Positions 30,242-63,382 are shown, counted from the first letter of the stretch. The stretch: DNA of 64,000 nucleotides from a virus (IMGVR_UViG_3300025150_000002:96001-160000); one strand, 5' to 3'. A program made the numbers and translations. Notes: generated by a model from the letters alone, not told the origin.

Positions 30242-30261
30242 ACAGAGAATATGCAGGAGTG

Positions 30262-30378
30262 GTGACTGTGAGACACGGAGACCGACGGAAGACTCTTACT
30301 GCTCCAGAGTACGCAGCCTGGTCGGCCATGCGATCACGCTGTAGTGGCGTTGGTATTGGCGCATGGGAAGACGCATGA
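30262..30378 (+). pseudogene. truncated remnant of a phage HNH-associated endonuclease
   Basis: RHG...TAPEYAAWSAMRSRC matches the common HG..T.EY..W..M..RC phage nuclease motif, then stops after 38 aa. Confidence 0.55.
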
Positions 30379-30446
30379 TTCCCCCAGCAGCACACCTCAC
30401 CGGGGGCACCACCGGTAAGTTCATCGTCGTCGAAGGCAACATCGGG
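30375..30446 (+). pseudogene. relic 5' end of deoxynucleoside kinase, fused in frame to the HNH ORF
   Basis: MIPPAAHLTGGTTGKFIVVEGNIG versus downstream dNK MPIDIPAACSHLSDAQRGAFIVVEGNVG. Confidence 0.85.
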
Positions 30447-30500
30447 CCTGTTGACGACGGTATGGCGTCAATGTTACCTTCTCGTCTTCGGAGGTGGCAG

Positions 30501-31004
30501 ATGTCGCAAAGGCAGCGAAAGCCTTGGACCGAGGACCGTAAGCGCCAAGCGGTCGACCTCTACGAGACTGGCGTCTCAATGCATGCCGTGGCCAGAGCCA
30601 TGGTCACGTCGGTGCGCCATGTTCATCGTGTGCTGAACGAGCGCGGTGTGGTCAGGTCGAAGTCAGACCTTTACCGAGGAGACGGAAACCCGGCCTGGAA
30701 AGACGGTAGGCGCGTCGTTGGCGGCTATGTCTACCTCTACAGACCCGAGAGTCCGATGGCGACAGAGGCCGGCTACGTGGCTGAGCATCGGCTAGTCGTA
30801 TCTGAGTCTGTTGGTCGTCCTCTCAAGCGTGGTGAGGTCGTGCATCACAAGAATGGCGACAAGGCAGATAACCGACTGGAGAACTTGGAACTCTTTGCGT
30901 CGAACGCCGAGCATCTGCGTCACGAGCTAACGGGCCGGTGCCCGGAATGGACCGAAGACGGGAAGCGGCGCCTCCGAGAGGCGCGCAACAGAGGTCGGGG
31001 GTAG
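30501..31004 (+). CDS. HNH homing endonuclease with HTH
   Basis: GYVAEHRLVV...VVHHKNGDKADNRLENLEL; GGAGG before ATG 30501. Confidence 0.9.
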   Translation: MSQRQRKPWTEDRKRQAVDLYETGVSMHAVARAMVTSVRHVHRVLNERGVVRSKSDLYRGDGNPAWKDGRRVVGGYVYLYRPESPMATEAGYVAEHRLVVSESVGRPLKRGEVVHHKNGDKADNRLENLELFASNAEHLRHELTGRCPEWTEDGKRRLREARNRGRG

Positions 31005-55018: not shown

Positions 55019-55795
<777 letters not shown>

Positions 55796-55796
55796 T

Positions 55797-56168
55797 GAAA
55801 AGAGCGCCGGGAGTCGAACCCGGGAGACCACCCATGGTGTCCTGTCTAAGTCGGACATGGGTGTGTAGTCGACAACCCTGAAACCAGTTAGCCAGGCAGT
55901 CTCGCATACGAGGTGCTAACGAGCAGGCGGCCCATTTGCACGACCCAACTCTCCCTCGACGTCGCTTTCATTATGAGCCCAACCAGTAACAGGTATCACC
56001 ACGCCGCCACCTTACGGCGTCTCCGCTCTTGTTGATGCCAGGAACTCTCATCCTGGGGAGGCTTGACGATTTTCTAAAATCGCCACTTACCCGGACTTAC
56101 ACCGGTCCACCGGCCCTAGCACTAGTGTTGCTCAAGAAACCTTCTCCCTCGTCCCCATTATCGCCCCT
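55797..56168 (-). ncRNA. tmRNA-like RNA
   Basis: T-arm CCGGG-TTCGACT-CCCGG, 3' CGCTCTT pairing with 5' AGGGGCG about 370 nt upstream, pk1-like CCGGtGGAC-CGGt-gtaa-GTCC, UAAGU|GGC resume-like site; ORF-poor interval. Confidence 0.55.
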
Positions 56169-56307
56169 GACGGGGTCTATTAGTTCGAGGCATCCAGTCC
56201 CTGCACCGGTCGCTAGGGGATCGGCACGCGGCCGTCATTCCGCGCTTACACCAACAGAGGTAGCGTAGCTCGGAAACATCCACTTCCAGTGGATTACCGC
56301 CCCACCT

Positions 56308-56574
56308 CTACCTCCATTTTACCCCGAACCGACGAGGGCGTCGTGTCGTACGAGGGTCGATCAACTCATCCAGGACTGTTCTCTCTTCGAGGATCAGACC
56401 AGCGGAAAAGCCGAGAGCTTGAGCGACCAAGGCGACATCGCGCAACCGCACGTCTTGATGTCCGCGTAAGACGTCCCTGACCGTTCGACAGCTAATACCA
56501 AGGATCCGAGCGAGTTCCCGGGGCTTCAGGCCTCGATCTTCGAGCTCGGCGCGGAGCAGGGCGGGTCCAGGCAT
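56308..56574 (-). CDS. XRE/Cro-like HTH regulator
   Basis: GLKPRELARILGISCRTVRDVLRG...VAQALG. Confidence 0.8.
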   Translation of the reverse strand: MPGPALLRAELEDRGLKPRELARILGISCRTVRDVLRGHQDVRLRDVALVAQALGFSAGLILEERTVLDELIDPRTTRRPRRFGVKWR

Positions 56575-56924
56575 CGGTGTCCCTCCGCAGCCATCCTATC
56601 CAACACTCCGGGCATCAGTGCGAGCTTGGCCGCCTTTATGGAGAGATAGTGTCTAACCGGCACGCCGTCGATGAAGATCCCCCATACCTTCTTGCTCTTA
56701 CGGTATCGGATCTCACCGTTGGTGACCTCAAGCGACTTGAAGGGGGTGACCACGCACACCACGTATCGCGTCCGAAAGCGTCTCTTGCTGCGTCGGCGCA
56801 GCACAAATGAGCCTACTGGGTGTGCATTCCGATCGATGTAACGATCGTTGCTGCGGAAGAAGTCTACCCAGTGAAGAGTCGGGTGCTGCTTGATGTCCTC
56901 GTGCCAGTCCGTGAGGTTGTTCAT
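56571..56924 (-). CDS. hypothetical protein
   Basis: Probable start MNNLTD; stop overlaps next ATG. Confidence 0.55.
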
Positions 56925-56981
56925 CGGCTCGTCCTGTCCCAAGTCAACGCCCGGTATAATCTGATCAGCACCGGAGTTGCC

Positions 56982-57170
56982 ATGTCTTCTACCCTAGATC
57001 AGCGTATCCGAAGCGTCGAAGCTATCCTGGGCTTCGAACTTCGCAGCTACCAAGACCAGGCCCTTCGGGCTTTAGGTGCCGGGAAGAACGTCATCCTTCA
57101 CGTTCCAACTGGTGGCGGGAAGGAAGGCTACTTTGTGCTAGACTCTCTTTCAGAGGAGGTCGGTGTATGA
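56982..57170 (+). pseudogene. relic intein-free 5' end of recQ-like helicase
   Basis: MSSTLDQRIRSVEAILGFELRSYQDQALRALGAGKNVILHVPTGGGK then unrelated tail and stop overlapping the ATG of the full gene. Confidence 0.9.
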
Positions 57171-60100
57171 GCCCGATAGAGGGTCGCATTGAGTCGGTGG
57201 AAAGGCTTCTGGGATTCCAGGTCAGGTCATACCAAAGGCAAGCCCTCACAGCCCTGGGTCAGGGCAAGAGTGTGATTCTTCACGCTCCTACAGGCTGCCA
57301 CGCGCCTGGTCAGCTGATTCTGATGCACGATGGCTCGACCAAGAAGGTCGAGGACATCAAGAAGGGCGACCTTCTTATGGGGCCCGATAGCAAGCCCCGT
57401 CGCGTTACTAGGCTGATTCGCGGTCGCGGTCGAATGGTCAAGGTCCACCCGAAGAAGGGCGAGCCGTTTGTGGTCAACGAGGATCACATCTTGACGCTCG
57501 TCCGGACCGGCGTGGTCAGGACTCCGTCTGATGGTTCCAGGAAGCGTCGAGACTTGGGAGGTGAGCTCATCGACGTCAAGGTCAAGGACTGGGAGACCTG
57601 GTCATTGACCCAAAAGCACATCCACAAGCTCAAGCGTACAGGCGTCACTTTCCGTAGTCGAGCGCCACTCCCATTGGACCCATATACGCTCGGCATCATC
57701 ATCGGAGATGGGTCTATCAAGGACGGTACTCCTGGGGTCACCACCGCTGATTCTGAGATCGAAGAGGTTCTTGTGGCCTGCGCTGAGCGTCGGGGCCTTT
57801 ACATCAGAGAGGAGGTTAAAGCGGGAAATGCGGCTACGACCTATCGCTTGTCTTCTGGGCACCGGAAGCAAAGGGGCCGTGCCGGCGGAACGAACTCACT
57901 GACTAACGATCTTCGCCAACTCGGTCTCTGGGGCAAGGGTAGTTCGGACAAGTTCATTCCGGGGACCTACAAGGTTGCTTCCAGAAAGAGCAGACTCGAT
58001 CTCCTCGCAGGGCTCATCGACGCGGATGGCTATCTACATCACAACAACCACGTCCTAACTACTGCTAGCGAACAACTCGCAGCAGACGTTGCTTTTGTCG
58101 CCCGGAGTCTTGGGTTCGCAGCCTATATCTACACCACCTCGAAGAGGTGCCAGACTGGCTACGAGGGCGACTACTTCAGGGTCTCTATTACTGGCGACAA
58201 CTCCATCATCCCTTGCAGGCTTGAGAGGAAGACAGCCTCTCCGAGAGGCCAGGAGAAAGACCCTACGAGGACGGGCTTCACGCTTGAGGATGTTGGAGAG
58301 GGAGAGTTCTACGGGTTCTCCCTTACCGGTGATGGTCGATTCCTGCTCGGTGATTTCACCATCACCCACAACAGTGGTAAAACCGTGGCCTTCCAAGGTG
58401 CGCCATACGTGTCTCCGCACCCGGGGATAACGGTAATCCTCTACCCTCTTCGCGCCCTGGTGAAAGACCAGTCGCGACGGTTCAGCGAGCTTGGGCTCCC
58501 CAGCGTGACGCTCTACGGTGAGACTCCGACCACCGAGCGGGCCGCAATCTACGACAAGATCCTCTCAGGCTCTACCAAGATTCTGCTCACGACGCCTGAG
58601 TCCTTCGACATGAACAGGAAGTTGCAGGACGTCCTCAGGCAGCGCGGCGTGTCTGTTTTGACCGTCGATGAGGCTCATGCCTATGAGGAGTGGGCTGATG
58701 GATTTCGGCCCACCTACCGTCGGGCCGGAGCCGTCGCGAGGAGTGTCGGCGTCAAGCAGTTCCTGCTGTGCTCCGCCACTCTTACCGGTAAGGGCTTCCG
58801 AACCGCCTGCGACACCATCGGAGTGTCCAACTGGACCATCGTTCAGATCCCTCCACTGCGCTCGAACTTGATCTACAGGGACCTGAGCCAGCCTGAGAGC
58901 GAGATCCTCTGTCGGGCCGTAAGGGGCGATGGGCTGGAGGCCCCCGGGATCGTATTCTTCACGACCGTCAAGCGTCTGGAGGAGACGGCGTCCTTCGTTG
59001 AGACAAAGACTCGCCGGAAGGTGCTTCGTTATCACGGCGGCATGGCCGGCAAGGCGCGTCGAGAGGCACAAGAAGAGTTCATGACCACCGATACCTGGAT
59101 CTTTGCGACCAAGGCATTCGGTATGGGAATCGACAAGGACAACATCCGGAACATCATCCACTGTCAGTTGCCGAGCTCGGTTCTGAGCTACGCGCAGGAG
59201 TGCGTTCACGGCGACACGCCGGTGATGACGTTGAACGGAAACCGCCCAGCGCGAGACATCAAGGCGGGCGACCAACTGGCCGGCTACGACCCGGTTACTG
59301 GTGAGGTGGTTCCGGCAGTCGTTAAGGAACTCTACCAGGGCAAGACGGGTGACTGGCTCGCCGTTCGGACCTCGGCTGGTGATGAGATTGTGGTGACGAA
59401 GAATCATCCGTTCATAGTGAACGGTGGTGAGGTCCGTGCGGACCAACTCAAGGTCGGTGAACGCTTGGCGACGCTCAGCAGTTCCGCTCAGGTTGACCGT
59501 CCAATGCTTACGGCCGACTGTCTGATTGCCGATCAGACGTTCGCTCAGGTCGAACCTGGTCTTATCGATGCTCTTCGAGACAAGCTGTCTCCGACCGAGC
59601 TCGGTCAGATGTTCGGACTCTCTCGCCACCACGATTACTCCAGCTATCGTCGTGGTAAGGCGATCAAGCTCTCTGGACTGCAGGCCGCCGGCGACGCTGC
59701 TGGTATGCCTCGGCAGCAGATCTATAGTCGCGTTCTTGCGCTGAAGTCCCGGAGTGGGAAGCCTGTTCGACTGCCTCTCACGCTCGATGACGCCGAACTG
59801 GGGTGGTTCGCCGGTATCGTGGCGACTGACGGCTACATCTACCGGTCGGACAAGTCAGGGTTCGGTAGTTGGAAGATCAAGCTCACGAATACGAATCACG
59901 CGATCGTTGACAAGTTCGCCGGAATCGTGAAGCGGTTTGGACTTCACTGCCACTCTTACATCAGGACTCATCGATCTGACGCGTTGTCGAAGCGCCCGGC
60001 TCACTGCGCCGAAGTTTCGAGCCCTGTGCTCTGCGACCTACTCAACCATCTCGGTATCCACGATGGTCGCAAGAGCACGACCGTGTCTTGTTCTGAAACC

Positions 60101-61435
60101 GCGCTGAGTGCTGGAAAGCTGTTCAAGGCCGGCTTTGCGGCGGGTGTCATCGATGGCGACGGGAACCTGAGTCCTCCGAGGAGCAGCAAGCCACAGGGTA
60201 AGGTGCGGTTTCACACCGCGTCCTGGCGCTTTGCATCGTGCTTCGCCAAGCTCCTCCATAGTCTTGGTATCCACGTTCGGTTGTCGACCGAGGACTACTT
60301 AGACAACGCGCACATCATGAAGTGCTCAGTCGATTCCGGCTACAATGGCGAGATCGGGCGTTTTGAGTCGCTGCGGCGGTTCGCGGACTCCGTTGCCCCG
60401 CATCTGGTCAAGCGGATGTTTCCGGTCAAGCTGATGAGCACGGATGCACGCGAGAGCATTGGACCGATCATCGTTTCCAGGGTCATCGAGATCCGCGAGC
60501 TCAGCACGGATCTGCCGGAGTCGACGTTCAACTGGCGTGTGGAGCCGCACCATCTTCTCTGGACCGCGAACACGCTGACTCACAACTGCGGAAGAGCTGG
60601 TCGTGACGGTTACGAGTCCAACTGCTTCTTGACACAGGAGGAGCACGGCCAGTCGGCCCACTTCCTCATTGATATGAGCGTGCCGTCTATCGGGCATGTT
60701 AGGAAGGTGTGGAACGTTCTGCAGGTCATCGCGCTCGACTGGCCCGGTTGGTTCGAGGTTGATTGGCCGGATGTGGCGGCCCGAACCGGTCTGAGCCTTC
60801 CGGCTGTTCAGGCCTGCGTCAGCTGGCTTTTCACCGGGAAAATGATCGAGAAGAAGCAGAAGCGGTTGGCGTGGAAGTTCACCATTCATGACGAGTCCGA
60901 CGCCAAGGCGATCAAGTACAAGCGGAAGACCCCAGAGCTCCTCGATGCGCTTCGTGGAGAGGCGATGGTCGATCAGGGGCCCGCTGTGTTCGAGCTCAAG
61001 CCAGACGTCTTGTCCGAGGTAGTTGGACAGCACTTCTCCAACTGGCAGGCCAAGCTTAGGAAGATGAACGAACTTGACATCATCCGGATCGAGGAGCCCC
61101 CGAAGGGGAGATCCAGTTACCGGTTCCTGCACGGCTCGTTCCACTTCGCCCAGGGGCAGAAGCAGTTGGAGAAGGCCCGGTCCAGTGCCTTCGAGCGGCT
61201 GGCAGCCATGCGAGACCTTCAGTCGTGTGCGGCCCACAAGCGTCGAGACTTGATCGAGGACGCGATCTCTTTGAAGCTCCCTCCCATGGAGGGCCTGGAG
61301 ATCCTAGACACCGATCACACCGAGCCGGACCACACCGCCGAGCAGAAGGTCACCAAGCGACCTGTCATCAAGGCGGCGAAGCTAGCAGATGATGATCCGT
61401 TTGCCGAGGACGACGAGTTCATCGTCCCCTTCTAG
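57167..61435 (+). CDS. recQ: RecQ-like helicase precursor with two inteins
   Basis: HAPTG|SGKT, LYPLRAL, TTPE, VDEAH, SATL, ATKAFGMGIDK, YAQE|CGRAGRDG. Confidence 0.93.
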   Translation: MSPIEGRIESVERLLGFQVRSYQRQALTALGQGKSVILHAPTGCHAPGQLILMHDGSTKKVEDIKKGDLLMGPDSKPRRVTRLIRGRGRMVKVHPKKGEPFVVNEDHILTLVRTGVVRTPSDGSRKRRDLGGELIDVKVKDWETWSLTQKHIHKLKRTGVTFRSRAPLPLDPYTLGIIIGDGSIKDGTPGVTTADSEIEEVLVACAERRGLYIREEVKAGNAATTYRLSSGHRKQRGRAGGTNSLTNDLRQLGLWGKGSSDKFIPGTYKVASRKSRLDLLAGLIDADGYLHHNNHVLTTASEQLAADVAFVARSLGFAAYIYTTSKRCQTGYEGDYFRVSITGDNSIIPCRLERKTASPRGQEKDPTRTGFTLEDVGEGEFYGFSLTGDGRFLLGDFTITHNSGKTVAFQGAPYVSPHPGITVILYPLRALVKDQSRRFSELGLPSVTLYGETPTTERAAIYDKILSGSTKILLTTPESFDMNRKLQDVLRQRGVSVLTVDEAHAYEEWADGFRPTYRRAGAVARSVGVKQFLLCSATLTGKGFRTACDTIGVSNWTIVQIPPLRSNLIYRDLSQPESEILCRAVRGDGLEAPGIVFFTTVKRLEETASFVETKTRRKVLRYHGGMAGKARREAQEEFMTTDTWIFATKAFGMGIDKDNIRNIIHCQLPSSVLSYAQECVHGDTPVMTLNGNRPARDIKAGDQLAGYDPVTGEVVPAVVKELYQGKTGDWLAVRTSAGDEIVVTKNHPFIVNGGEVRADQLKVGERLATLSSSAQVDRPMLTADCLIADQTFAQVEPGLIDALRDKLSPTELGQMFGLSRHHDYSSYRRGKAIKLSGLQAAGDAAGMPRQQIYSRVLALKSRSGKPVRLPLTLDDAELGWFAGIVATDGYIYRSDKSGFGSWKIKLTNTNHAIVDKFAGIVKRFGLHCHSYIRTHRSDALSKRPAHCAEVSSPVLCDLLNHLGIHDGRKSTTVSCSETALSAGKLFKAGFAAGVIDGDGNLSPPRSSKPQGKVRFHTASWRFASCFAKLLHSLGIHVRLSTEDYLDNAHIMKCSVDSGYNGEIGRFESLRRFADSVAPHLVKRMFPVKLMSTDARESIGPIIVSRVIEIRELSTDLPESTFNWRVEPHHLLWTANTLTHNCGRAGRDGYESNCFLTQEEHGQSAHFLIDMSVPSIGHVRKVWNVLQVIALDWPGWFEVDWPDVAARTGLSLPAVQACVSWLFTGKMIEKKQKRLAWKFTIHDESDAKAIKYKRKTPELLDALRGEAMVDQGPAVFELKPDVLSEVVGQHFSNWQAKLRKMNELDIIRIEEPPKGRSSYRFLHGSFHFAQGQKQLEKARSSAFERLAAMRDLQSCAAHKRRDLIEDAISLKLPPMEGLEILDTDHTEPDHTAEQKVTKRPVIKAAKLADDDPFAEDDEFIVPF
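57296..58372 (+). mobile_element. RecQ intein 1 with LAGLIDADG (359 aa)
   Basis: CHAPGQ...NEDHIL...LGIIIGDG / LAGLIDADG...TITHN/S in the P-loop. Confidence 0.94.
59201..60586 (+). mobile_element. RecQ intein 2 with LAGLIDADG (462 aa)
   Basis: CVHGDT...TKNHPF...FAGIVATDG / AAGVIDGDG...TLTHN/C in motif VI. Confidence 0.94.
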
Positions 61436-62788: not shown

Positions 62789-62969
62789 CGTTCCTTTGTT
62801 GATTTCGGGCTAATCTGACGGTTTTATACCGCCGATGGTGTTGGGATCGCCTAATGACCGGGTGGATTATCTGGTTTTTCGGCTGGACTTTAGGCACCAA
62901 CTCCTTTCAGCACAAGAACTTGAGAAATCTCCGGAAAGGCTTGTTATCCAATCCGAGATCGCTATAACA

Positions 62970-63310
62970 GGGGCACTCAGCAGTTGCTGGGGGTCGTTTC
63001 GCCTCTTACGAGTGGTGTGCGGTCGTGACTGGGACGGACTTCAGCTTCGGCTAAAGTAGACAACGGTTGAGGGTGACGCCCAGGAGTCCGAGGTAATGCT
63101 CACTCCGAGGAAACGAGCTCGCTGAGGGTAAGGCCCTCAGAGGCGACACCAAGGCGGGGATGCGGCGCAGGGACCGGGTAATGCCGACCAGGTGGTAAGC
63201 GACTAGCGCTACGAATTACACTCTCAAAGTGTGGAGCGTAGAGCCGAAGGCAACTGATGGGATACGGAGAGAGGCGGATCAGGGAAACCTGATCCGCCTC
63301 GCTTCATTTT
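62970..63310 (+). ncRNA. candidate large structured non-coding RNA
   Basis: ORF-free; TTGTTA-N16-TATAAC at 62941-62968; several GNRA-capped hairpins; ends in the 13-bp GAAA hairpin GAGGCGGATCAGG/CCTGATCCGCCTC. Confidence 0.45.
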
Positions 63311-63382
63311 GCTCAAACGGTGGGAGTCTGGTAGCATCACTTAGCAGAGCGATGTGGTTGTAAGACCCGTAGGAGCAAAGTG

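What the first reader, a model, noticed from the sequence alone, without database searches (positions are those of the whole stretch)
55797..56327. tmRNA-like RNA with a degenerate acceptor and a non-degron tag frame
Seen (minus strand): tRNA T-arm, acceptor AGGGGCG/CGCUCUU with two G-U pairs and no encoded CCA, pk1-like pseudoknot at 56093-56113, UAAGU|GGC at 56084. That frame gives 37 aa (GDFRKSSSLPRMRVPGINKSGDAVRWRRGDTCYWLGS*); the alternative gives AILENRQASPG*. Neither ends in the usual Ala-Ala degron. A further 140 nt of hairpins lie upstream behind a GGGGTAAAA motif. Inference: a phage tmRNA that rescues ribosomes without targeting products for proteolysis, an SmpB decoy, or a different tRNA-like RNA class.
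Basis: partly seen in the sequence, partly recalled or inferred. Interest (0 to 1): 0.6.

Follow-up and report, generated by a model that had tools for sequence, protein, structure and literature searches.

The report
Orphan phage RNA-like insert, tRNA-type end
A 512-base protein-free insert in an uncultured 203-kb phage ends in a genuine tRNA-type hairpin but fails every testable tmRNA criterion, and with no relatives found it remains an unproven candidate for a phage RNA with a tRNA-like tail.

Summary
The sequence features exist, but the tmRNA reading does not hold.

**What is real**
- A perfect tRNA-type T-arm lies at 55807-55823 on the minus strand.
- It closes a 512-nt stretch (55796-56307) with no coding signal, between the convergent HTH and vWA genes of a 203-kb phage contig.

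**Why it is not a tmRNA**
- ARAGORN finds nothing.
- Rfam tmRNA scores 19.2 bits against a cut-off of 47, and only the T-arm aligns.
- A true tmRNA with the same T-arm in another jumbo phage scores 149 bits and carries an ...ALVA tag.
A perfect partner, AAGAGCG, lies at 56024-56030.
- Neither candidate places G·U at position 3:70.
- No minus-strand frame ends in a degron.

**Conservation**
- The closest relative has overlapping HTH and vWA stop codons, so the insert is absent there.
- No homologue was found, so covariation cannot be tested.
- Folding stability is unremarkable for this genome.

**Best reading (about 0.4)**
It is a lineage-specific structured RNA with a tRNA-like 3' module, analogous to phage T5 stable RNAs such as RNAX, which directly precedes tRNA-Arg. 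A non-functional relic is nearly as likely.

This scan has noted tRNA-shaped phage RNAs on other genomes. None resembles this one in sequence.

The parts
55796..56307 (-). 512-nt protein-free insert between the convergent vWA and HTH genes; candidate RNA on the minus strand
   Evidence: All six frames have negative codon log-odds and 3-10 stops each. Stop-to-stop frames give no Pfam or PHROG hit. The 79-aa plus-strand ORF has no homologue among 5.8 billion proteins. The insert is absent from relative L004.
55807..55823 (-). tRNA-type T-arm CCGGG/UUCGACU/CCCGG
   Evidence: Read. Identical over 18 nt to the T-arm of the phage's own odd tRNA at genome c[11762,11835]. Identical over 19 nt to the T-arm of a true tmRNA in another jumbo phage. 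It is the only part that the Rfam tmRNA model aligns with confidence. The consensus scan also flags it as terminator-like.
55800..55806 (-). Acceptor 3' strand CGCUCUU, followed by UUCA (no CCA); the UCA is the antisense of the vWA stop codon
56024..56030 (-). AAGAGCG, the perfect Watson-Crick partner of the acceptor 3' strand, used by the minimum-energy fold
   Evidence: P=0.037 in shuffles.
56162..56168 (-).
   Evidence: At chance level: at least one such partner occurs in 76% of shuffles. Enforcing it costs only 1.3 kcal/mol, so thermodynamics cannot choose between the two candidates.
56019..56023 (-). GAGAC, pairs with GUCUC (55828-55824) directly 5' of the T-arm; together with the acceptor and T-arm it forms a three-way junction
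   Evidence: The helix forms under both acceptor choices.
56003..56018 (-). D-arm-like hairpin with a GG-containing loop (UAAGGU)
55865..56002 (-). 138-nt long arm in the position of an anticodon arm
   Evidence: Predicted from one sequence only.
55829..55863 (-). 35-nt hairpin in the position of a long variable arm
56032..56310 (-). 5' domain of about 280 nt: a hairpin of about 55 nt starting at the HTH stop codon, then a multibranch fold
   Evidence: z=-3.13 on the minus strand against -1.61 on the plus strand. However, 3 of 36 random windows of this genome reach the same z. No Rfam match at E<=10.
56316..56323 (-). GGTAAAAT, one mismatch from GGTATAAT; a possible -10 box that would place a transcript start at about 56309
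   Evidence: The best -35 candidate matches only 3 of 6 bases (read), and the site is below the threshold of the promoter scan. Speculative.
56308..56574 (-). Cro/C1-type HTH gene directly upstream on the same strand
   Evidence: Pfam HTH_3 at 1.3e-6. 53% identical to the L004 orthologue.
55019..55795 (+). Convergent vWA-domain gene; its stop codon abuts the RNA's 3' end
   Evidence: Weak hits to three Pfam vWA families, all below the curated cut-offs (VWA_2 6.1e-5, VWA_3 4.1e-4). 21 homologues at 47-64% identity.

Best explanation
The stretch 55796-56307 is a lineage-specific non-coding insert. It is most likely transcribed on the minus strand, either by read-through from the HTH gene or from a weak promoter at its end, into a structured RNA of about 510 nt.

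The last 230 nt or so of that RNA form a tRNA-shaped module. This module has a 7-bp acceptor stem (AAGAGCG/CGCUCUU), a canonical T-arm, a D-arm-like hairpin, a 138-nt arm where the anticodon arm would sit, and a long variable-arm-like hairpin.

By analogy with phage T5 stable RNAs (RNA1 and RNA2, annotated as tRNA-like; RNAX, which directly precedes tRNA-Arg), the tRNA-like end would recruit host tRNA-processing enzymes such as RNase P, 3' trimming enzymes and the CCA-adding enzyme. That would define and stabilise the RNA's ends. The T-arm hairpin plus the CUCUUUU tail may also stop transcription.

It is not a tmRNA.

Shown here: the insert is non-coding, it carries a tRNA-type T-arm, it is absent from the closest relative, and it fails the tmRNA tests. 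Inferred only: transcription, strand, fold and processing.
For: - Non-coding: no coding signal in any frame, no protein-family remnants, and no homologue of the largest ORF.
- T-arm: 18-19 nt are identical to the T-arm of a real tRNA-like gene in the same genome and of a real tmRNA in another jumbo phage.
- Acceptor: a perfect 7-bp complement exists at P=0.037.
- Strand: the minus strand folds better than the plus strand in both halves (z -3.13 and -1.93 against -1.61 and -1.03). It is also G-rich (171 G against 125 C).
- Fold: the GAGAC/GUCUC helix next to the T-arm forms under either acceptor choice.
- Boundaries: the insert starts at the HTH stop codon and ends at the vWA stop codon. In relative L004 these two stop codons overlap.
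- Precedent: the T5 GenBank record annotates tRNA-like stable RNAs of unknown function, and a 719-nt RNAX directly followed by tRNA-Arg.
Against: - The element is a singleton. It was not found in phage GenBank records, in IMG/VR pattern scans, in the relatives G001-G003, or in this scan's index. There is therefore no covariation.
- The folding z-score is ordinary for this genome: 3 of 36 random windows are as low.
- Four different 5' partners can be proposed for the acceptor strand, because the 3' strand is pyrimidine-rich and the region is purine-rich.
- No convincing promoter was found.
- No tRNA genes lie nearby, unlike the T5 stable RNAs.
Confidence: 0.4

Rival explanations
1. Non-functional relic. 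The insert is a decayed or recombined piece of a former tRNA or tmRNA locus, or a scar left by a lost mobile gene. Only the T-arm survives, perhaps refreshed by gene conversion from the phage's own tRNA at 11.8 kb or retained as a terminator.
For: The element is a singleton and is absent from the closest relative. Only the T-arm recurs elsewhere in the genome. Folding stability is within the genome's ordinary range. This phage carries many mobile elements, including two inteins in the neighbouring helicase. The gap size of 512 nt is close to that of a tmRNA gene (409 nt in G002).
Against: Outside the T-arm there is no residual similarity to the G002 tmRNA: local alignment score 17 against a shuffle mean of 19.5. 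Uniform decay would not leave 19 of 19 bases intact beside nothing. No protein remnant was detected. The strand asymmetry of folding and the perfect acceptor complement would both have to be coincidences.
Confidence: 0.3
2. Long 3' untranslated region of the HTH gene ending in an intrinsic terminator that only happens to look like a T-arm.
For: The consensus scan calls CCGGGTTCGACTCCCGG + CGCTCTTTTC a terminator-like site. It lies at the end of a transcription unit, facing a convergent gene.
Against: A 5-bp stem with a 7-nt loop and an interrupted U-tract makes a weak terminator. The loop matches the T-loop pattern base for base, and the whole arm equals that of real tRNA-type genes. The relative manages with overlapping stop codons and no spacer.
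Confidence: 0.12
3. A divergent or degenerate phage tmRNA or SmpB decoy: 5' end at 56168, resume codon at 56084/56083, total length about 372 nt.
For: The overall dimensions resemble a tmRNA, with about 85 nt from the 5' end to the resume codon and about 372 nt in total. This comparison rests on my own recollection of E. coli tmRNA (363 nt, resume codon near nt 90). The sequence after AGGGGCG (AUAAUGGGGACGA) shares 8 of 13 positions with the tmRNA D-loop analogue. The 11-codon frame starts with Ala (GCG), and its UGA stop lies in a hairpin loop. Phage tmRNAs are known (PMC7162821, PMC9004378). Another jumbo phage in the collection has a tmRNA with the same T-arm.
Against: ARAGORN finds none, even at 80% of its threshold on this strand. 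RF00023 gives 19.2 bits against a cut-off of 47, aligns only the T-arm, and prefers a different D-loop-like piece at 55888. In the control search the same model gives sub-threshold hits (E<=0.001) in four archaeal genomes; archaea have no tmRNA (textbook knowledge), so a hit of this kind is not diagnostic. The positive control scores 149.3 bits with an ...ALVA tag. The acceptor is at chance level. G3 pairs with C70. The sequence before the T-arm pairs with 56019-56023, not with bases near the 5' end. The candidate resume codon sits inside a 9-bp hairpin. No frame ends in a degron. The phage has no SmpB gene.
Confidence: 0.07
4. attP-type integration site that carries the 3' end of a host tRNA or tmRNA gene.
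For: An isolated T-arm plus acceptor 3' strand is what such sites look like.
Against: The 203-kb contig has no tyrosine integrase. Among 185,579 species genomes the 21-mer GGTTCGACTCCCGGCGCTCTT occurs once, inside a stretch where ARAGORN finds no tRNA or tmRNA gene.
Confidence: 0.03

Closest known systems
Phage T5 stable RNAs of the tRNA region (RNA1 and RNA2, 'tRNA-like stable RNA with unknown functions'; RNAX, 719 nt, directly followed by tRNA-Arg; GenBank AY543070.1)
   Same: Phage-encoded, protein-free and several hundred nucleotides long. A tRNA-type element at the 3' end could serve as a processing signal. Function is unknown.
   Different: The T5 RNAs lie inside a dense tRNA cluster and are experimentally observed stable RNAs. 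This element stands alone between an HTH gene and a vWA gene, has no tRNA neighbour, has no expression data, and shows no sequence similarity to any phage record.
tmRNA (SsrA, Rfam RF00023), including phage-encoded tmRNAs
   Different: 19.2 bits against a cut-off of 47 and against 149.3 for the control. No G3:U70, no P2 topology, no supported PK1, no degron tag, and no ARAGORN call.
3' tRNA-like structures of plant RNA viruses, and the MALAT1/mascRNA arrangement
   Same: A tRNA mimic at the 3' end of a much longer RNA, used for processing by tRNA enzymes, for 3'-end protection, or for both (PMC4810235 for the plant viruses; mascRNA from my own knowledge).
   Different: Those are eukaryotic systems with pseudoknotted acceptor stems or RNase P/Z processing shown by experiment. 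The mascRNA model scores only 17.2 bits here against a cut-off of 42.5. Nothing about this element has been tested at the bench.
Canonical tRNA, including tRNAs with an intron in the anticodon loop
   Same: T-arm, 7-bp acceptor and a D-arm-like hairpin. With its intron option ARAGORN calls 'tRNA-Thr(cgt) with a 68-nt intron' at 55797-55956.
   Different: There is no call without the intron option. That model needs a mismatch and two G-U pairs in the acceptor. Known bacterial tRNA introns are group I introns of about 200 nt or more (my own knowledge), and no group I match was found.

Membership tests
tmRNA (RF00023) | Covariance-model score at or above the Rfam gathering score (47 bits) | tested here: not met
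   19.2 bits; only 55806-55888 aligns, essentially the T-arm. Positive control L023: 149.3 bits. The same model gives sub-threshold hits in four archaeal control genomes; archaea lack tmRNA by textbook knowledge.
tmRNA (RF00023) | Recognised by ARAGORN as one-piece or permuted tmRNA | tested here: not met
   No call at default settings. Lowered thresholds give only scattered, overlapping, mutually inconsistent calls. Control tmRNA in L023 is called at default settings.
tmRNA (RF00023) | Acceptor stem with the G3:U70 alanine identity pair | tested here: not met
Perfect stem AAGAGCG: G3-C70. A G-U falls at the third pair only if the stem is shortened to 6 bp.
tmRNA (RF00023) | Helix P2 joining bases just after the 5' tRNA-like part to bases just before the T-arm | tested here: not met
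tmRNA (RF00023) | Pseudoknot PK1 upstream of an accessible resume codon | tested here: inconclusive
   56113-56091 holds three CCGG/GGAC palindromes that give alternative hairpins, not a sterically plausible H-type knot. The candidate resume codon GCG lies inside the hairpin GGCGAUUUU/AAAAUCGUC. No covariation is available.
tmRNA (RF00023) | Tag reading frame ending in a hydrophobic, Ala-rich degron | tested here: not met
   None of the 23 stop-terminated minus-strand frames ends in this way. The control tag is ANSNEQGLTDAQIHAWIDGAAKPALVA.
tmRNA (RF00023) | Alanylation, SmpB binding, and tagging of stalled peptides | not testable with these tools
   Bench assays are needed. The contig holds no SmpB gene, but the host's SmpB could serve.
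tRNA (RF00005 / ARAGORN) | Cloverleaf with a 7-nt anticodon loop, recognised by tRNA finders | tested here: not met
   No tRNA is called in the window. A call appears only with the intron option, and it has an imperfect acceptor.
Phage stable tRNA-like RNAs (T5 RNA1/RNA2/RNAX type) | Non-coding phage RNA with a tRNA-type acceptor/T-arm element | tested here: met
   Non-coding. T-arm with adjoining acceptor strand and a perfect 7-nt complement.
Phage stable tRNA-like RNAs (T5 RNA1/RNA2/RNAX type) | Located within, and co-processed with, a tRNA gene cluster | tested here: not met
   The 64-kb window holds no tRNA. The whole contig has only two, at 11.8 kb and 193.6 kb.
Phage stable tRNA-like RNAs (T5 RNA1/RNA2/RNAX type) | Accumulates as a discrete stable RNA during infection | not testable with these tools
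   The phage is uncultured and no transcript data are held.
Any structured RNA family | Conservation with compensatory base changes in homologues | not testable with these tools
   No homologue was found.

The most novel reading that the evidence does not exclude
The insert encodes a new kind of phage RNA: a tRNA-shaped molecule with a giant arm and a 280-nt ornate leader. It would be matured by the host's tRNA enzymes and would act on a tRNA-binding host factor. For example, it could be a decoy for tRNA-targeting defence nucleases or for SmpB/EF-Tu, or a chargeable tRNA mimic with a non-translational role.
Probability: 0.12. Interest if true: 0.6.

Novelty: new member of a known kind. Interest (0 to 1): 0.27.

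Why it matters
If the insert is transcribed and processed, it would add one more case to the long-unexplained class of phage stable RNAs that carry tRNA-type ends (T5 RNA1, RNA2 and RNAX). This case is unusual in standing alone, outside any tRNA cluster, in a groundwater jumbo phage. That would be of some use to anyone trying to learn what such RNAs do.

As it stands it is a single sequence with no conservation and no expression data. Its main value is negative. A sub-threshold tmRNA hit together with a G-U-tolerant acceptor pairing does not make a tmRNA, and true jumbo-phage tmRNAs from the same collection are easily recognised.

Tried and rejected
- **tmRNA and tRNA finders.** ARAGORN at default, lowered-threshold, intron and mitochondrial settings. 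Rfam at gathering and at E<=10, on the window, the region, the candidate alone and the 5' domain alone. Only a 19-bit T-arm hit came back.
- **Homologue search.** No homologue of the insert came from any of these:
  - phage GenBank records by blastn;
  - loci encoding relatives of the vWA and HerA-like proteins — one close relative without the insert and two distant ones without a gap;
  - whole-record searches of those relatives;
  - this scan's own index.
- **Host tRNA or attP origin.** The GTDB scan for the 21-mer gave one chance hit, with no tRNA or tmRNA gene in that locus. The contig has no tyrosine integrase.
- **Ro/Y-RNA system**, suggested by the vWA neighbour. No TROVE domain was found. 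By reading its N-terminal sequence (no predictor was run), the vWA protein looks as if it has a signal peptide.
- **CsrA/RsmA sponge.** GGA motifs are not enriched: 12 observed against 13.5 expected.
- **Decayed protein gene or homing endonuclease.** No Pfam or PHROG signal.
- **Small protein gene.** No coding signal and no homologue.
- **DGR template or intragenomic repeat.** Only the T-arm recurs in the genome.
- **Decayed copy of the G002-type tmRNA.** No similarity beyond the T-arm.
- **Thermodynamic stability as evidence.** Calibrated against random windows of the same genome, it is not exceptional.

Full report
**Setting**

The window is bases 96001-160000 of a 203,521-bp IMG/VR virus contig estimated at 89% complete. 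The finding lies in the gap between two convergent genes:
- a Cro/C1-type HTH gene on the minus strand (56308-56574; Pfam HTH_3, 1.3e-6);
- a vWA-domain gene on the plus strand (55019-55795).

The gap is 55796-56307, 512 nt. The finding's upper 20 nt, including the 'GGGGTAAAA' motif, are the last codons of the HTH gene.

**Observation**

- the T-arm CCGGG-UUCGACU-CCCGG at 55823-55807;
- the adjoining CGCUCUU, with no encoded CCA;
- the heptamer AGGGGCG at 56168-56162;
- both quoted peptides.

The T-arm is clearly of tRNA type. It is identical over 18 nt to the T-arm of the phage's own odd tRNA gene at genome c[11762,11835]. It is identical over 19 nt to the T-arm of a bona fide tmRNA in another jumbo phage.

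The acceptor pairing is a different matter. A G-U-tolerant 7-nt partner of CGCUCUU is expected 1.37 times in the 480 nt upstream, and at least one occurs in 76% of dinucleotide shuffles. Two exist here. The second, AAGAGCG at 56030-56024, is perfectly complementary (P=0.037), and the minimum-energy fold uses it.

With its intron option, ARAGORN proposes a third partner, AGGGAGAG at 55956. The mascRNA model proposes a fourth. The pyrimidine-rich 3' strand simply pairs with many purine runs.

The 'pk1-like' element is three CCGG/GGAC palindromes that form alternative hairpins. It is not a credible pseudoknot.

**Is it a tmRNA?**

ARAGORN finds no tmRNA or tRNA in the window. In the whole contig it finds only two tRNAs, both far away.

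Rfam at gathering thresholds finds nothing. At E<=10 the tmRNA model gives 19.2 bits against a cut-off of 47. It aligns only the T-arm and a short D-loop-like piece at 55888, and it deletes both acceptor strands.

Such a sub-threshold hit is not diagnostic. In the control search the same model hits four archaeal genomes, and archaea lack tmRNA by textbook knowledge.

A positive control turned up by chance. A complete 245-kb jumbo phage (G002) encodes a distant homologue of the vWA protein. It carries a tmRNA with the same T-arm that ARAGORN calls at default settings. That tmRNA scores 149.3 bits and has the degron-type tag ANSNEQGLTDAQIHAWIDGAAKPALVA. Outside the T-arm, the window's region shows no similarity to it: local score 17 against a shuffle mean of 19.5.

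Further tmRNA features fail:
- G3 pairs with C70 in both candidate stems.
- The bases before the T-arm (GUCUC) pair with GAGAC at 56019-56023, not with bases near the 5' end as helix P2 requires.
- The proposed resume codon is buried in a 9-bp hairpin.
- No minus-strand frame ends in an Ala-rich degron.
- The contig has no SmpB gene.

The dimensions are tmRNA-like. AUAAUGGGGACGA shares 8 of 13 positions with the D-loop analogue. An 11-codon frame starts with Ala, and its stop codon lies in a hairpin loop. I therefore leave the tmRNA reading about 7%.

**What is it, then?**

*Non-coding.* All six frames have negative codon log-odds and 3-10 stops each. By comparison, 96% of 80-codon pieces of real genes score positive. 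Stop-to-stop frames hit nothing in Pfam or PHROGs. The 79-aa plus-strand ORF has no homologue among 5.8 billion proteins.

*An insertion or deletion difference between relatives.* In the only close relative (L004/G001; vWA 53%, HTH 53%, HerA-like 79% identical), the vWA and HTH stop codons overlap within a CTAG. Two distant vWA loci likewise have no gap.

*Strand and fold.* The minus strand folds better than the plus strand in both halves and is G-rich. The predicted architecture has two parts:
- a 280-nt 5' domain that begins with a hairpin right at the HTH stop codon;
- a 230-nt tRNA-shaped 3' domain, made of the acceptor, a GAGAC/GUCUC helix, a D-like hairpin with a GG loop, a 138-nt arm, a 35-nt variable-arm-like hairpin and the T-arm.

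*Caution on stability.* When I calibrated the z-score on 36 random windows of the same genome, 3 were as low. Thermodynamics alone therefore proves little.

*Other families and origins.* No Rfam family matches either half. Also excluded or unsupported are:
- a Ro/Y-RNA system;
- a CsrA sponge;
- an attP site;
- intragenomic repeats or a DGR template.

**Mechanism**

The closest precedent I could verify is phage T5. Its GenBank record annotates RNA1 and RNA2 as 'tRNA-like stable RNA with unknown functions', and a 719-nt RNAX directly followed by tRNA-Arg.

By analogy, I propose that the insert is transcribed with, or just after, the HTH gene. A near-consensus -10 box, GGTAAAAT at 56323-56316, would start a transcript at the first hairpin, but its -35 is poor. 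The tRNA-like end would then be handled by RNase P, 3' trimming enzymes and the CCA-adding enzyme. This would define stable ends. The T-arm plus CUCUUUU would possibly also terminate transcription. All of this is inference.

A relic of a lost tRNA-type or mobile gene is nearly as likely.

**Limits**

Earlier notes of this scan describe tRNA-shaped phage RNAs on other genomes. None shares sequence with this one.

Background from papers: phage tmRNAs are known and are routinely found with ARAGORN (PMC7162821, PMC9004378). 3' tRNA-like structures of plant viruses are reviewed in PMC4810235.

Noticed in passing
G000:C1:11762-11835 (minus strand; outside the window, 84 kb upstream): Odd tRNA-like gene that ARAGORN labels tRNA-?(Leu|Val)(aa). 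It has a 6-nt anticodon loop, a mismatched anticodon stem and an acceptor beginning U-A, U-G. It sits in a 130-nt gap between two minus-strand genes, and its T-arm is identical to the one in the finding.
   Followed up: partly
L023:1491-1902 (minus strand; IMGVR_UViG_3300017971_000001, 245 kb, direct terminal repeats): Bona fide jumbo-phage tmRNA (Rfam 149.3 bits) followed by tRNA-Gly(tcc). In the Rfam alignment the tag is 27 aa, ANSNEQGLTDAQIHAWIDGAAKPALVA. ARAGORN reports a different frame, ADQKAHLPTATSRA. No CCA is encoded.
   Followed up: partly
L004:3684-3687: In the closest relative, the convergent vWA and HTH genes share their stop codons within a CTAG palindrome (TAG on both strands, 2-nt overlap), leaving no room for a terminator between them.
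   Followed up: yes
window 55019-55795 (+): The vWA protein starts with a stretch that looks like a signal peptide, followed by a run of eleven PT repeats. It belongs to a small family of about 20 metagenomic proteins with conserved DxSGS and TDG motifs, and one source names a member 'Mg-chelatase subunit ChlD'. It is probably exported, which is unusual for a phage vWA protein.
   Followed up: no
window 56308-56574 (-) and 56526-56942 (-): The HTH gene has an atypical codon score (-0.13) for this genome. Its start overlaps by 49 nt a well-scoring 138-aa ORF with no Pfam hit.
   Followed up: no
window 57167-61435 (+): The DEAD/RecQ-like helicase gene carries two intein/LAGLIDADG insertions. The orthologue in L004 appears intein-free at its 5' end. 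Other notes of this scan already cover this.
   Followed up: no
window 30242-30937 and 62789-63379: My crude codon-score gene call leaves further large gaps with no coding signal: about 700 nt at 30.2-30.9 kb and about 590 nt at 62.8-63.4 kb. The second overlaps a structured-RNA candidate already reported by this scan. The first may simply be a low-scoring gene, because ORFs of 213-257 aa overlap it.
   Followed up: no
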